From Escherichia phage KookSpook, in sequence record PP925842.1: a stretch of 64,000 bases of DNA; one strand, 5' to 3'. Shown here in pieces: positions 167 through 2,482 of the stretch. A program made the translations under genes and the position numbers. How positions within the stretch are numbered: position 1 is the stretch's first letter; the number at the start of each line of letters is the position of its first letter. Under the pieces are notes generated by a model, which was not told where the DNA came from, ran no database searches, and was given only the letters and a program-made list of their open reading frames with translations.

Positions 167-640
167 AATTGAAAATTCGCAGGGTTAGCGAAACCATCCT
201 CAAATAGCATTTTCTAGAATACTAATCAAGTTATCTCCTATTGCACGCAGCTCAAGACGAGTACGAATTTTCAATTGTGGCGGCTCTCCGAAACTCATCG
301 CACTAACAACTAGTTGATTACTCTTGGATTCTCGCCCAAGAAATTCTCTAGAAAGGTGCACCGTTACTCTTTGAGCCATTGATGTGCCCTGCTGCTCTCA
401 GGGCTAGCTATTACTTGTATGTTACATACTGGCCATAGCTAGGCGCACCACAGATCCTATCATATAATTTAGAGTGCGGGAGGACTCATGCACGCACTTT
501 ATCAAGAAGCAGGAGGACTTGAACCTCCATGAGATAGACCATTTATCTCAGCCTCGTTTTAGGGTATCTTATTCGGAGTGGATGTTCCGCTTACGCCCTT
601 TAGGAAGCCCCGTCTACCGATTCCGGCATACTTCAAGATT

Positions 641-735
641 TGGAGGTAGGTAAGGGGATCGAACCCTTACACCGTATCACTACGATCAACCGATTTCAAG
701 TCGGAGTCCAGCGCCAGCCATTGGATTGACCTACC
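641..735 (-). tRNA. tRNA-Ser (anticodon UGA), long variable arm
   Basis: rc T-arm 652-668; acceptor 645-651 pairs with 729-735; 92 nt; anticodon loop CUUGAAA. Confidence 0.75.
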
Positions 736-742
736 AATTATT

Positions 743-833
743 TGGCGGAAGAGGAGAGATTTGAACTCTCAAGCCGTTTTACCAGTCAGCCACTTTCCAA
801 GCGGTTTTCGTCGCCAATTCGATTTGCTCTTCC
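743..833 (-). tRNA. tRNA-Ser (anticodon GGA), long variable arm
   Basis: rc T-arm GAGAGATTTGAACTCTC 754-770; acceptor 747-753 pairs perfectly with 827-833; anticodon loop UUGGAAA. Confidence 0.75.
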
Positions 834-945
834 AATAATAAGATGATGCCTCTATCGCACCAGGCAGTTACGCCTCGCTGGGATTCGAACCCATTAAAAC
901 AGCTCAACCGAGATAGTAGGTTTAATTTACTCTGACCATCAAATT

Positions 946-1022
946 TGGTGCGTGACAAGGGATTCGAACCCTCAAAACCCGACTTCTAAGGACGGTATGT
1001 ATGCCAATTCCATCAATCACGC
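946..1022 (-). tRNA. tRNA, class I scaffold, anticodon UAG (Leu-type codon CUA)
   Basis: rc T-arm 957-973; acceptor 950-956 pairs with 1016-1022; anticodon loop CUUAGAA with one U-U mismatch in stem; no long variable arm. Confidence 0.5.
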
Positions 1023-1027
1023 ATATT

Positions 1028-1106
1028 TGGTGGAGGATAACGAATTCGAATCGTTCTGATGTCCTCGGTGCAAGCGAGGTGTCCACTCCCAGCAGACCCA
1101 TCCCCC
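1028..1106 (-). tRNA. tRNA-Ala (anticodon UGC)
   Basis: rc T-arm AACGAATTCGAATCGTT 1039-1055; acceptor with G3-U70 pair (Ala identity element); anticodon arm CCTCG/CGAGG, loop CUUGCAC. Confidence 0.8.
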
Positions 1107-1391
1107 AAATTCTTTAGTTTACTAAGGCTATTAGCTCGGCGTAACTACAGCACCTTCGCTTCGAGCGGAAGGAACTACGTCATCTCGCAAACCCGATACA
1201 CTATTCAGTTGCCGCTGAATCTAGTGAACTAATCTAGAACTTCTCCCGAATCATAGGGATCGTGCTTTTTGGCAGCCAGTCCTAGGTCGAGCTAATACCT
1301 TAGTGAACTACGATGAGGATTTCTCCTCATCAATTTATATAAATATTATAACAAGAAATTAAGCATTAAGCAACTAAGTTTTTCTTGAAAT

Positions 1392-1469
1392 TGGTGGGTT
1401 GCACAGGGCTCGAACCTGTAACCTATGGTTTAAAAGACCAGTGCTCTAAACCAGTTGAGCTAGCAACCC
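1392..1469 (-). tRNA. tRNA-Lys (anticodon UUU)
   Basis: rc T-arm ACAGGGCTCGAACCTGT 1403-1419; acceptor 1396-1402 pairs perfectly with 1463-1469; loop CUUUUAA. Confidence 0.8.
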
Positions 1470-1638
1470 TTAGTAACCATTATATACCTCTTTAATAGAG
1501 TGAACTTTTAGATAAGAATGATTAATTCTGAACTCTGCCATTACTTCATTTTCATTTTTACCGTAATGAGCGAGTACAGATTTTACTGTGCTCTTACCTA
1601 AACGTTTGTCACTTACTAATAGTCGAAATACTTTCATC
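1470..1638 (-). CDS. small hypothetical protein (about 55 aa)
   Basis: ORF below track threshold; ATG at 1636-1638 preceded on minus strand by GAGGA about 7 nt upstream. Confidence 0.3.
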
Positions 1639-1657
1639 TCGAAATCCTCTATTAAAT

Positions 1658-1735
1658 TGGAAGCGGGTGCAGGAATCGAACCTGCCTCTTTCTAGCTTAT
1701 GAGACTAGCGATCTCTACCAGAGATCTAACCCGCA
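1658..1735 (-). tRNA. tRNA-Met or Ile2 (anticodon CAU)
   Basis: rc T-arm GCAGGAATCGAACCTGC 1669-1685; acceptor pairs 1662-1668 with 1729-1735 with 1:72 mismatch; loop CUCAUAA. Confidence 0.7.
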
Positions 1736-1741
1736 ATTATT

Positions 1742-1817
1742 TGGTCAGTGCGGCAGGACTCGAACCTGCGACCCGAAGCATCCAAGGCTCCCACGCTACC
1801 AACTGCGCTACGCACTG
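1742..1817 (-). tRNA. tRNA-Pro (anticodon UGG)
   Basis: rc T-arm GCAGGACTCGAACCTGC 1753-1769; acceptor 1746-1752 pairs perfectly with 1811-1817; loop CUUGGAU. Confidence 0.8.
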
Positions 1818-1826
1818 TTAATTCTT

Positions 1827-2024
1827 TTATTGTGGAGGAATATTAATAATTCGTCCATCTACACAATATGCGGTACTAGGAATTGTACTGTATATGTAGA
1901 AATTTTTTATATTACTCTCTCCACCACAGAAATTTTTAGCAAATTCATATTCTTTATTAATGGTTGAATCAAACTTAAAGCAACCAGTAAGTAAAAGTAC
2001 GGACAGTAGTAAAACTTTTTTCAT
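1827..2024 (-). CDS. putative small lipoprotein
   Basis: N-terminus MKKVLLLSVLLLTGC = signal peptide plus lipobox Cys; 65 aa; promoter-like TATAAT/TTGCTA block on minus strand at 2040-2100. Confidence 0.5.
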   Translation of the reverse strand: MKKVLLLSVLLLTGCFKFDSTINKEYEFAKNFCGGESNIKNFYIYSTIPSTAYCVDGRIINIPPQ

Positions 2025-2482
2025 TTAGCTTTCCTTCTCAACACTTTATAAGATATATTATACAGAGAACTAAGCTAAATAGCAAATACATTTTTAATAA
2101 ATTTACTTATTGTGTAGGCCACCTGGAGGTTTAACCCTCACGGCTGACAAAGAAGTTTGCGAGACTTCTCTTAAATGCCAGAATAGACCCGCCGATCTAT
2201 CGGAACCTACTCAATAAGTAAACTTTCTTTATTTATAGGTCAATCTAGACAGGATTCGAACCTGCTATCACTTGTGCGGACTTACGAGAACCATTCTTTC
2301 ACTCGAATCGAACGAGATTCTGCCCTAGCCAAGCCGGTTTCCCCATCAACCGCGCTAGAATGTTTATTGTTTTCAGTGCAAGAGTCCGAGTCTAGGACAC
2401 GACCGCTTCGCAAGTACATAGGCAGCTTATCATGAGTCGGCACTTCCGAATTGCTAGCTCCGTGTTCTGCACTGAAATTTTG

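What the first reader, a model, noticed from the sequence alone, without database searches (positions are those of the whole stretch)
170..2480. ORF-free structured stretches inside the tRNA array lacking canonical tRNA signatures
Regions 170-500, 1107-1320 and 2100-2480 lie within promoter-driven minus-strand transcripts, have no plausible ORF (the track ORF 2282-2491 reads as junk) and no GGTTCGAATCC-type T-loops, yet contain stable hairpins (for example GCCCTG...CAGGGC near 389-407). They could encode small stable RNAs other than tRNAs.
Basis: seen in the sequence. Interest (0 to 1): 0.45.

Follow-up and report, generated by a model that had tools for sequence, protein, structure and literature searches.

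The report
Known T5 stable tRNA-like RNAs
The ORF-free gaps in this T5-like phage's tRNA array are the small stable and tRNA-like RNAs already annotated in phage T5 and its relatives, whose function is still unknown; one of them proves to belong to a tRNA-shaped RNA family found in many unrelated large phages.

Summary
The window comes from a T5-like phage (about 92% identical to Tequintavirus genomes). All three flagged stretches align to features that GenBank records of T5 st0, Salmonella phage 5 and DT57C annotate as "stable RNA" or "tRNA-like RNA with unknown functions". 168-377 holds RNAIII and RNAI, 1126-1297 holds RNA2H, and 2108-2361 holds RNAIV and RNA2. RNA1 lies next to the first stretch at 501-637.

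The overlapping ORFs are not conserved as reading frames. The elements are as conserved as the tRNAs (93-98%, against 77-91% for neighbouring small ORFs). RNA1, RNA2H, RNAIV and RNA2 show many compensatory base-pair changes.

One claim fails. RNA2 (2242-2361) has a canonical T arm; it is a tRNA cloverleaf whose anticodon loop is replaced by a conserved insert of about 50 nt.

Two further structured elements are not annotated in those three records: a 115-nt insert at 384-500 and a nearly invariant 113-nt stem-closed element at 2366-2478.

New here: RNA2-type RNAs occur in a T4-like Acinetobacter phage and in dozens of unrelated viral and metagenomic contigs of up to 570 kb, with strong covariation and no Rfam family. 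Their function remains unknown; tRNA mimicry is an inference.

The parts
168..274 (-). RNAIII orthologue (about 107 nt). A long closing stem encloses three hairpins. The 3' end abuts the 5' end of tRNA-His (166).
   Evidence: Aligns to T5 st0 misc_RNA rnaIII. It is 95-98% identical in 22 T5-like loci. Fold z = -2.6. No covariation, because the sequence is nearly invariant.
162..282 (-). Precursor-level perfect 18-bp duplex (282-265 pairing with 179-162). It encloses RNAIII and buries RNAI's 3' GCCA together with the first 5 nt of tRNA-His.
   Evidence: Read directly from the sequence and seen in the MFE fold. That it is an RNase III-type processing stem is an inference.
278..377 (-). RNAI orthologue (100 nt). 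A rod-like hairpin with terminal helix GGCUC/GAGCC followed by an encoded single-stranded G-CCA tail.
   Evidence: Aligns to T5 rnaI at both ends, while the centre is a different allele. Both alleles fold as rods. The Klebsiella-phage homologue keeps GGCCC/GGGCC + A + CCA, a compensatory change.
384..500 (-). Insert of about 115 nt between RNA1 and RNAI, with three hairpins including GCCCUG/CAGGGC. Absent from T5, phage 5 and T5_ev212, and not annotated in any record I inspected.
   Evidence: Alignment gap relative to T5. Found at 95.7% identity in L014 and as a roughly 50%-identical allele in JLBYU43 and SB9 that keeps the three stems with different sequence.
501..637 (-). RNA1 orthologue. 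A type-II (Leu-like) tRNA cloverleaf with D arm, long variable arm and T arm GGAGGUUCAAGUCCUCC. The anticodon loop is replaced by a hairpin of about 48 nt.
   Evidence: Annotated as T5/phage 5 rna1, 'tRNA-like RNA'. 14 of 38 pairs are compensatory and 99.6% of cells are paired, against 1-3 compensatory pairs and 41-49% paired in slid controls.
1126..1297 (-). RNA2H orthologue (172 nt). A 17-bp closing stem (extending to 1113-1305) around a multi-branch core.
   Evidence: Aligns to T5 rna2H. Present in 426 phage records at 74-98% identity. 9 of 51 pairs are compensatory, against 0-4 in slid controls. Fold z = -3.1.
1312..1373 (-). Promoter P13b (-35 at 1373-1368, -10 at 1350-1345) and a 5' leader hairpin (1331-1312) that precede RNA2H.
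   Evidence: Aligns to T5 promoter P13b. The consensus TTGCTT-N17-TATAAT is quoted.
2108..2213 (-). RNAIV orthologue. A cloverleaf-shaped four-way junction with elongated arms, flanked by an outer 10-bp stem (2100-2222).
   Evidence: Aligns to T5 rnaIV. Fold z = -6.0. 11 of 46 pairs are compensatory, against 0-4 in slid controls.
2242..2361 (-). RNA2 orthologue. It has a tRNA acceptor stem, D arm and canonical T arm. The anticodon loop is replaced by a conserved insert of about 50 nt: GGGY/RUCC helix, inner hairpin with T-loop UUCGAUU, YGGU and CGUAA.
   Evidence: Annotated as T5/phage 5 rna2, 'tRNA-like RNA'. Covariance model R1 scores it 157.7 bits. Family covariation: 93% of cells paired, and 28 of 32 and 26 of 32 pairs compensatory.
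2366..2478 (-). Stem-closed element of about 113 nt (UUUCAGUGCA.../...UGCACUGAAA) between tRNA-Arg(CCU) and RNA2, not annotated in the T5, phage 5 or DT57C records.
   Evidence: 96.5-99.1% identical in 26 loci, more conserved than RNA2 and RNAIV on either side. Fold z = -2.2. The overlapping ORF is broken in all 22 homologues. There is no feature at the homologous position in AY692264 or AJ604531.

Best explanation
The stretches encode the T5-group small stable RNAs: RNAIII, RNAI, RNA2H, RNAIV and RNA2, with RNA1 alongside, plus two elements that the T5, phage 5 and DT57C records do not annotate.

How they are made:
- They are transcribed on the minus strand together with the tRNA genes, from early sigma-70 promoters such as P13b.
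- They are then cut out by the host's tRNA-processing enzymes. RNase P cleavage at the 5' end of the next tRNA or tRNA-like unit sets 3' boundaries. The 15-18-bp closing stems around RNAIII, RNA2H, RNAIV and the 2366-2478 element are probable RNase III or RNase E sites. Exonucleases trim back to the structured ends.
- They persist because they fold compactly, several as tRNA cloverleaves without a decoding anticodon loop.

What is shown: orthology to the annotated RNAs, structure conserved under selection, and absence of coding.

What is inferred: the processing route, and the function. I take the function to be trans-acting tRNA mimicry, that is, occupying or diverting a host factor that recognises tRNA shape, such as a tRNA-targeting defence nuclease or a modification or processing enzyme. 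I give about one chance in four to that specific function. The confidence of 0.85 below refers to the identity as T5-group stable structured RNAs.
For: - Identity and synteny with annotated misc_RNAs in T5 st0, phage 5 and DT57C (alignments).
- Conservation at tRNA level: RNAIII 96.8%, RNA2H 95.6%, RNAIV 93.3%, RNA2 93.2% and the 2366-2478 element 97.9%, against 77-91% for neighbouring ORFs.
- Compensatory changes: RNA1 14 of 38 pairs, RNA2H 9 of 51, RNAIV 11 of 46, with 0-4 in slid-partner controls.
- RNA2 family: 93.1% and 92.9% of cells paired, covariation score 0.76 and 0.80 against 0.17-0.19 shuffled and 0.05-0.15 slid.
- No conserved reading frames.
- tRNA shape confirmed independently by ARAGORN with introns allowed.
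- RNAI keeps an encoded NCCA tail across a compensatory change in its terminal helix.
- RNA2-type genes occur in unrelated phages, three times with no tRNA in the fetched locus, which argues for a trans-acting product.
- T5 tRNAs from this same region are known to counter tRNA-cleaving defences (PARIS, PMC11464382; retron Eco7, PMC10644984). That makes tRNA mimicry a reasonable context.
Against: - No transcript data were available here. That RNAI, III and IV were seen as discrete RNAs in infected cells rests on the depositors' wording 'stable RNA' and on my recollection of 1970s-80s T5 papers, which I could not retrieve.
- The whole tRNA region can be deleted in viable T5 mutants (PMC11464382; PMC12483538), so any function is conditional.
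- No conserved protein partner was found next to RNA2-family genes.
- RNAIII and the 2366-2478 element show no covariation, so their structures rest on folding energy and invariance alone.
- Nothing here tests decoy activity.
Confidence: 0.85

Rival explanations
1. The elements are purely cis-acting spacers. They would be structured punctuation that guides RNase III, E and P cleavage, insulates neighbouring tRNAs from misfolding or stabilises the polycistronic transcript. The excised pieces would be by-products with no role of their own.
For: - They sit between tRNAs.
- Long closing stems flank RNAIII, RNA2H, RNAIV and the 2366-2478 element.
- The 18-bp duplex around RNAIII involves the 5' strand of tRNA-His.
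- In the Klebsiella-phage segment the RNAIII slot holds an unrelated RNA with the same stem-closed architecture.
- Most RNA2-family genes lie inside tRNA clusters.
Against: - A processing signal does not need about 25 invariant unpaired nucleotides in the RNA2 insert across unrelated phages.
- It does not need a conserved encoded CCA on RNAI.
- RNA2-type genes in L007, L078 and L183 have no tRNA in the fetched locus.
- The interior of RNAIII is as invariant as its stem.
Confidence: 0.15
2. They are decaying tRNA genes: pseudogenes or relics of tRNA duplication and homing-endonuclease traffic, kept only by linkage.
For: - RNA1 and RNA2 are clearly tRNA-derived.
- The T5 record AY587007 flags some neighbouring tRNA-Ser genes as pseudo.
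- The region is a deletion hotspot and is dispensable.
- HNH and GIY-YIG endonuclease genes are scattered through it.
Against: Relics would not be 93-98% conserved while adjacent ORFs drift to 77-91%. They would not keep pairing through compensatory changes. They would not recur with the same insert in T4-like and jumbo phages.
Confidence: 0.05
3. RNA1 and RNA2 are genuine decoding tRNAs interrupted by an intron in the anticodon loop that is removed after transcription.
For:
- Public records label the RNA1 homologue tRNA-Phe or tRNA-Ser.
Against: - The supposed anticodon loops are not conserved. For RNA1 the loop reads CCUAAAGGG in the window, CCGAAUAGG in T5 and CCUAAAAGG in T5_ev212.
- For RNA2 no U33/R37 context precedes the insert in any lineage, and the residual loop would be GCGA+GCA with C at position 33.
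- The inserts are far too small for group I introns, and the pairing is an internal loop, not a bulge-helix-bulge.
- Enteric hosts have no tRNA splicing endonuclease (established knowledge).
- The insert of RNA2 is the most conserved part of the molecule.
Confidence: 0.03
4. The stretches encode small proteins, as the 'hypothetical protein' calls in several public records imply.
For: Open frames of 53-69 codons exist. Some records annotate CDSs there.
Against: Frames are broken in homologues (22 of 22, 7 of 16 and 3 of 8). Substitutions show no third-position bias, unlike the control ORFs.
Confidence: 0.01

Closest known systems
Phage T5 / BF23 / Salmonella phage 5 stable RNAs RNAI, RNAIII, RNAIV, RNA2H and tRNA-like RNA1, RNA2 (GenBank AY692264, AJ604531, KM979354)
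   Same: Same positions between the same tRNA genes and promoters. Sequence identity is 80-98%, and the folds match.
   Different: - In the window, the centre of RNAI is a different allele.
- An extra 115-nt structured insert lies between RNA1 and RNAI.
- A tRNA-Arg(CCU) replaces ORF T5p065 upstream of the 2366-2478 element.
- The 2366-2478 element has no annotation in those records.
Phage T4 species 1 and species 2 RNAs (rnaC, rnaD)
   Same: Small stable RNAs of unknown function at the end of a phage tRNA cluster. rnaC has a tRNA-like T arm and acceptor end. They are co-transcribed and processed with the tRNAs, with RNase III involved (my knowledge; McClain 1979 is listed as ref. 48 of PMC4810235).
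   Different: No sequence or covariance-model relationship. Model R1 scores rnaC at 15 bits, the level of ordinary tRNAs, and the RNA2 insert motif is absent.
Canonical tRNA (Rfam RF00005)
   Same: RNA1 and RNA2 have a 7-bp acceptor stem, a D arm with GG, a T arm with UUCRANY and, in RNA1, a type-II variable arm.
   Different: They have no 7-nt anticodon loop and no Rfam tRNA hit even at E<=10. RNAIII, RNAI, RNA2H, RNAIV, the insert and the 2366-2478 element lack tRNA tertiary-interaction nucleotides.
Engineered 'tRNA scaffold' RNAs (a foreign RNA grafted in place of the anticodon stem-loop so that E. coli processes and stabilises it; my knowledge, Ponchon and Dardel)
   Same: RNA1, RNA2 and a different example in L046 (8795-8913) have exactly this layout: an intact acceptor, D and T framework with a foreign structured module on the anticodon stem.
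   Different: These are natural and conserved, and the grafted module has no known activity.
Bacterial Y-RNA-like YrlA and other tRNA mimics (tmRNA tRNA-like domain, mascRNA)
   Same: Non-decoding RNAs that reuse the tRNA elbow and are made by tRNA-processing enzymes (my knowledge).
   Different: There is no Rfam match to any of them. ARAGORN finds no tmRNA. No Ro-binding helix or tag reading frame is present.

Membership tests
T5-group stable / tRNA-like RNAs (as annotated in AY692264, AJ604531, KM979354) | Sequence orthology to the annotated misc_RNA features | tested here: met
   Alignments A1-A3. BLAST identities of 80-98%.
T5-group stable / tRNA-like RNAs (as annotated in AY692264, AJ604531, KM979354) | Same gene order relative to tRNA-His, tRNA-Ser, tRNA-Ala and promoters P13a/P13b | tested here: met
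   Feature tables, compared.
T5-group stable / tRNA-like RNAs (as annotated in AY692264, AJ604531, KM979354) | Accumulation as discrete stable transcripts in infected cells | not testable with these tools
   No expression data were available. This rests on the depositors' wording 'stable RNA'.
Canonical tRNA (RF00005 / ARAGORN) | Score at or above the Rfam gathering score (29 bits), or a default ARAGORN call | tested here: not met
   No hit in 168-637, 1107-1320 or 2100-2480.
Canonical tRNA (RF00005 / ARAGORN) | Acceptor stem, D arm and T arm with a UUCRANY loop | tested here: met
   Met for RNA1 and RNA2 only. Not met for RNAIII, RNAI, RNA2H, RNAIV, the insert or the 2366-2478 element.
Canonical tRNA (RF00005 / ARAGORN) | 7-nt anticodon loop with U33 and a purine at position 37 | tested here: not met
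   The loop is replaced by a structured insert of about 48-50 nt, and no conserved U33 context exists.
RNA2-type tRNA-scaffold family (defined here by model R1) | tRNA framework plus GGGY/RUCC helix, inner hairpin with UUCGAUU loop, YGGU and CGUAA | tested here: met
   Window 2238-2364 scores 157.7 bits. About 40 further members score 29-162 bits, while ordinary tRNAs score 27 bits or less.
RNA2-type tRNA-scaffold family (defined here by model R1) | All helices supported by compensatory change | tested here: met
   28 of 32 and 26 of 32 pairs compensatory, and 0 of 500 shuffles reach the observed values. One proposed pair (G:C just outside the insert) fails, unpaired in 15 of 27 sequences. Caveat: the alignments were fitted to the model.
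T4 rnaC / rnaD | Detectable sequence or structure homology | tested here: not met
   R1 gives 15 bits on rnaC and no specific hit on rnaD. BLAST of the window stretches finds no T4 record.
tmRNA, Y-RNA-like and other curated RNA families | Match to a curated covariance model | tested here: not met
   cmscan of 1-2700 at E<=10 returns only tRNA-clan hits and chance-level hits outside the elements.

The most novel reading that the evidence does not exclude
T5 'RNA2' (window 2242-2361) represents a widespread, phage-restricted RNA class that, as far as I could find, has not been described as a family. It is a tRNA framework that carries, in place of the anticodon loop, a conserved module with its own T-loop and GG dinucleotide, effectively a second tRNA 'elbow'.

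Its distribution:
- It occurs in Demerecviridae, in a T4-like Acinetobacter phage, and in environmental phage contigs from about 1 kb up to 570 kb.
- Only 2 of 35 pattern hits among the 185,579 species-representative genomes are true members.
- It has no Rfam model.

The most novel reading not excluded is that it, and perhaps RNA1, RNAI and the other array RNAs, are trans-acting tRNA mimics. They would neutralise or hijack a host factor that recognises tRNA shape, such as a tRNA-cleaving defence nuclease or a processing or modification enzyme. That would extend the known anti-defence role of T5 tRNAs to non-decoding RNAs.
Probability: 0.2. Interest if true: 0.8.

Novelty: already known. Interest (0 to 1): 0.4.

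Why it matters
These RNAs have been annotated with 'unknown functions' at least since the T5-group genome records were deposited, and current phage annotation pipelines almost always miss or mislabel them. In the records I saw they appear as 'none', 'hypothetical protein', tRNA-Phe, tRNA-Ser or tRNA-Gly. Recognising them prevents false gene calls.

The tRNA region of T5 is now known to hold counter-measures against tRNA-cleaving defences. Conserved non-decoding tRNA look-alikes in the same operons are therefore obvious candidates for related roles. Because the RNA2 type is shared with unrelated large phages, there is a defined, testable molecule rather than a T5 curiosity.

Tried and rejected
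- **Rfam:** searched at gathering score and at E<=10. Nothing turned up in the elements except chance-level hits.
- **Default ARAGORN:** no call.
- **Literature:** six full-text searches for the original T5 stable-RNA papers or any RNA-seq description found nothing usable. Glukhov 2018 is not held.
- **Coding hypothesis:** rejected.
- **Intron-containing tRNA hypothesis:** rejected. The anticodon context is not conserved and there is no bulge-helix-bulge.
- **T4 rnaC/rnaD as relatives of RNA2:** rejected.
- **Conserved protein neighbour of RNA2-family genes:** none found beyond homing endonucleases. A GatB/YqeY-like ORF lies upstream only in two related contigs.
- **An extra helix AGAA/UUCU inside the RNA2 insert, and a GNRA reading of CGUAA:** both considered by eye and dropped, because other lineages do not support them.
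- **Scan with the RNA1 14-mer GGAACATCCACTCC:** almost all chance matches, so uninformative.
- **Klebsiella phage vB_Kpn_AM_K4 as evidence for RNAI outside T5-like phages:** set aside. The 288-kb record carries a T5-like tRNA segment and may be a chimeric assembly.
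Full report
**What the window is.** The first 11 kb carry a minus-strand array of tRNA genes. The DNA is about 92% identical to Tequintavirus and Epseptimavirus (T5-like) phages.

**The flagged stretches are annotated RNAs in T5 relatives.** I aligned them to three carefully annotated records: T5 st0 (AY692264), the Salmonella phage 5 tRNA region (AJ604531) and DT57C (KM979354). Every stretch coincides with misc_RNA features (alignments).

| Window coordinates (minus strand) | Feature |
|---|---|
| 168-274 | RNAIII |
| 278-377 | RNAI |
| 501-637 | RNA1 |
| 1126-1297 | RNA2H |
| 2108-2213 | RNAIV |
| 2242-2361 | RNA2 |

The depositors describe RNAIII, RNAI, RNA2H and RNAIV as 'stable RNA with unknown functions', and RNA1 and RNA2 as 'tRNA-like RNA with unknown functions'. 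The finding is therefore a rediscovery of known features. Most other public records leave these regions blank or call them hypothetical proteins or odd tRNAs.

**Checking the observation.**
- ARAGORN and Rfam find no ordinary tRNA in the three stretches.
- The T5-type promoter P13b (-35 at 1373-1368, -10 at 1350-1345) directly precedes RNA2H.
- P13a (2085-2057) lies downstream of RNAIV. The 2100-2480 stretch must therefore be transcribed from further upstream, through tRNA-Arg(CCU) at 2482-2556.
- The reading frames are not genes. ORF 2282-2491(-) is interrupted in all 22 homologous sequences. The other frames show no third-position bias, while three neighbouring real ORFs stay open with 53-76% of substitutions at position 3.
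- The statement that there are no tRNA-type T-loops is wrong for 2100-2480. CAGGTTCGAATCCTG (2250-2264) is the T arm of RNA2.
- The hairpin GCCCTG/CAGGGC (386-404) is real.

**Evidence that these are selected, structured RNAs.** I compared identity to the window across T5-like loci.

| Element | Identity to the window |
|---|---|
| RNAIII | 96.8% |
| 2366-2478 element | 97.9% |
| RNA2H | 95.6% |
| RNAIV | 93.3% |
| RNA2 | 93.2% |
| RNA1 | 86.3% |
| tRNAs | mostly 93-99.5% |
| Interspersed small ORFs | 77-91% |

RNAalifold structures on non-redundant homologues are 99.4-99.7% paired for RNA1, RNA2H and RNAIV. Compensatory changes occur at 14 of 38 pairs (RNA1), 9 of 51 (RNA2H) and 11 of 46 (RNAIV). 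When partners are slid by 1-3 columns, only 0-4 pairs qualify and 32-53% of cells pair. RNAIII and the 2366-2478 element are too invariant to show covariation. For them the evidence is invariance plus folding energy (z = -2.6 and -2.2). RNAIV (z = -6.0) and full-length RNA2H (z = -3.1) are clearly more stable than shuffles. RNAI, RNA2 and the insert are not.

**Anatomy of each RNA.**
- **RNA1** is a type-II, Leu-like cloverleaf. It has the D arm CCG-GAAUCGGUAGA-CGG, a variable-arm hairpin and the T arm GGAGG-UUCAAGU-CCUCC. Its anticodon loop is replaced by an irregular hairpin of about 48 nt.
- **RNA2** is a cloverleaf whose anticodon stem continues into a conserved insert.
- **RNAIV** is a four-way junction with elongated arms inside an outer 10-bp stem.
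- **RNA2H** is a multi-branch core closed by 17 bp.
- **RNAIII** has three hairpins closed by a long stem. In the primary transcript this stem extends to a perfect 18-bp duplex (282-265 with 179-162). The duplex buries the 3' GCCA of RNAI and the first five nucleotides of tRNA-His.
- **RNAI** is a rod with terminal helix GGCUC/GAGCC followed by an encoded G-CCA tail. T5 and the window carry different central sequences that both fold as rods. A Klebsiella-phage homologue has GGCCC/GGGCC + A + CCA, so both the helix and the CCA are maintained.
- With introns allowed, ARAGORN calls RNA1 'tRNA-Phe(aaa)' with a 41-nt intron and, at a relaxed threshold, RNA2 'tRNA-Glu(ctc)'. This explains the odd labels in public records. 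The supposed anticodon contexts are not conserved, so these are not decoding tRNAs.

**Two elements not annotated in the T5, phage 5 or DT57C records.**
- Window 384-500 is a 115-nt insert between RNA1 and RNAI that T5, phage 5 and T5_ev212 lack. It recurs at 95.7% identity in one IMG/VR T5-like genome. In phages JLBYU43 and SB9 it recurs as a roughly 50%-identical allele whose three hairpins keep pairing with different sequence: GUGCG/CGCAC against GUGCU/AGCAC, and GCCCUG/CAGGGC against GGGAUG/CAUCCC.
- Window 2366-2478, between tRNA-Arg(CCU) and RNA2, is closed by UUUCAGUGCA/UGCACUGAAA. It is the most conserved non-tRNA piece of the region, yet carries no feature in the T5, phage 5 or DT57C records.

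**RNA2 belongs to a broad phage family.**
- A distant BLAST hit to Acinetobacter phage 133, a T4-like phage, fell in an unannotated gap between tRNA-Gly and tRNA-Cys.
- A degenerate pattern taken from the shared core recovered about 20 unrelated IMG/VR contigs.
- All of them have a tRNA framework whose 5-bp anticodon stem encloses the following, in order: RGGGYWG, a 4-7-bp hairpin with the T-loop UUCGAUU, 5-8 nt, YGGU, 2-4 nt, and CGUAAWUCCGCA.
- A covariance model built from four T5-like sequences (R1) scores members at 29-162 bits and ordinary tRNAs at 27 bits or less.
- On the resulting alignment, 93.1% of cells pair and 28 of 32 pairs show compensatory change. The covariation score is 0.757, against 0.17 for shuffles and 0.06-0.13 for slid partners.
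- A metagenome scan gave 27 true members among the 80 loci returned (119 pattern matches), about 14 of them on contigs not already seen in IMG/VR and one on a 570-kb contig. The statistics were the same: 92.9% paired, 26 of 32 compensatory, score 0.80.
- Among the 185,579 species-representative genomes, only 2 of 35 pattern hits are real. The family is essentially viral.
- It has no Rfam model, and T4's rnaC and rnaD are not members.
- The inner T-loop together with the conserved GG suggests a second tRNA-like elbow at the end of a lengthened anticodon arm. That is an inference from sequence.
- Most members lie in tRNA clusters, but three loci have no tRNA nearby. No protein gene is consistently adjacent.
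- These alignments were fitted to the model, which favours the structure. The slid-partner controls, and the compensatory changes visible in the raw sequences, argue that the signal is real.

**How it most likely works.**
- Shown: the RNAs are orthologues of annotated T5 stable RNAs, they are non-coding, and they are under selection for structure.
- Inferred: they are co-transcribed with the tRNAs from early promoters and released by host tRNA-processing enzymes. RNase P acts at the 5' ends of downstream tRNA or tRNA-like units, and RNase III or E at the long closing stems. The analogy is T4's tRNA cluster (my knowledge).
- Function is unknown. The region is dispensable in the laboratory (PMC11464382; PMC12483538). 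T5 tRNAs from the same operons defeat tRNA-cleaving defences. I therefore favour conditional, trans-acting tRNA mimicry, at about 25%, over a purely cis-acting processing role (about 15%) or relic status (about 5%).

**Verdict.** The added value here is the mapping, the covariation evidence, the two elements missing from the T5, phage 5 and DT57C annotations, and the recognition that RNA2 is one member of a widespread phage tRNA-scaffold RNA family.

Noticed in passing
window 641-735 and 747-833 (minus strand): Two tRNA-Ser genes (UGA and GGA). Default ARAGORN misses them, and Rfam scores them only below threshold against the tRNA-Sec model (37.6 and 19.7 bits). T5 relatives annotate them as tRNA-Ser, and AY587007 marks them as pseudo.
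   Followed up: partly
window 836-945 (minus strand): Unannotated 110-nt spacer between tRNA-Ser(GGA) and tRNA-Leu, 98.6% conserved across 18 loci. It contains a T-arm-like TGGGTTCGAATCCCA. In T5 an HNH endonuclease gene is inserted at this position.
   Followed up: partly
window 162-179 with 265-282: Perfect 18-bp duplex in the minus-strand transcript. It sequesters RNAI's encoded CCA end and the 5' strand of the tRNA-His acceptor stem, and so competes with tRNA-His folding.
   Followed up: partly
L006 1464-1568 (Acinetobacter phage 133, NC_015250): Unannotated RNA2-type element between tRNA-Gly and tRNA-Cys in a T4-like phage. Its acceptor region is irregular and runs into the next tRNA.
   Followed up: partly
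L046 8795-8913: A second kind of tRNA scaffold in an unrelated viral contig. The acceptor, D and T arms are intact, but a different hairpin insert sits on the anticodon stem. Natural 'tRNA-scaffolded' RNAs may be a general feature of phage tRNA clusters.
   Followed up: no
L034 2593-2752 (PP355766, Klebsiella phage vB_Kpn_AM_K4): The slot held by RNAIII in T5 is occupied by an unrelated RNA of about 150 nt with a 17-bp closing stem. Separately, the 288-kb 'Straboviridae' record carries a T5-like tRNA segment and may be a chimeric assembly.
   Followed up: partly
L007 3005-3508 and L076 10551-11000: What looks by eye like a GatB/YqeY-like ORF (no domain search was run) lies a few hundred nt (about 200 and 460) upstream of the RNA2-family gene in two related contigs that have few or no tRNAs nearby.
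   Followed up: no
window about 3033-3106 and about 9754-10540: By synteny with AJ604531 and KM979354, these positions should hold 'RNA3' (tRNA-like, 3' of tRNA-Asn) and the long 'RNAX' (3' of tRNA-Arg UCU). ARAGORN's odd 'tRNA-Ser(act)' at 10336-10409 lies inside the latter.
   Followed up: no
window 5771-5845: Rfam tRNA hit at 40.3 bits with no ARAGORN call. By position it probably corresponds to the tRNA-Ile(CAU) annotated next to tRNA-Ser(GCU) in phage 5 and DT57C.
   Followed up: no
public records hit: RNA1 and RNA2 homologues are variously labelled tRNA-Phe(aaa), tRNA-Ser, tRNA-Gly, 'tRNA-?' or hypothetical protein. This is systematic mis-annotation of these elements.
   Followed up: partly
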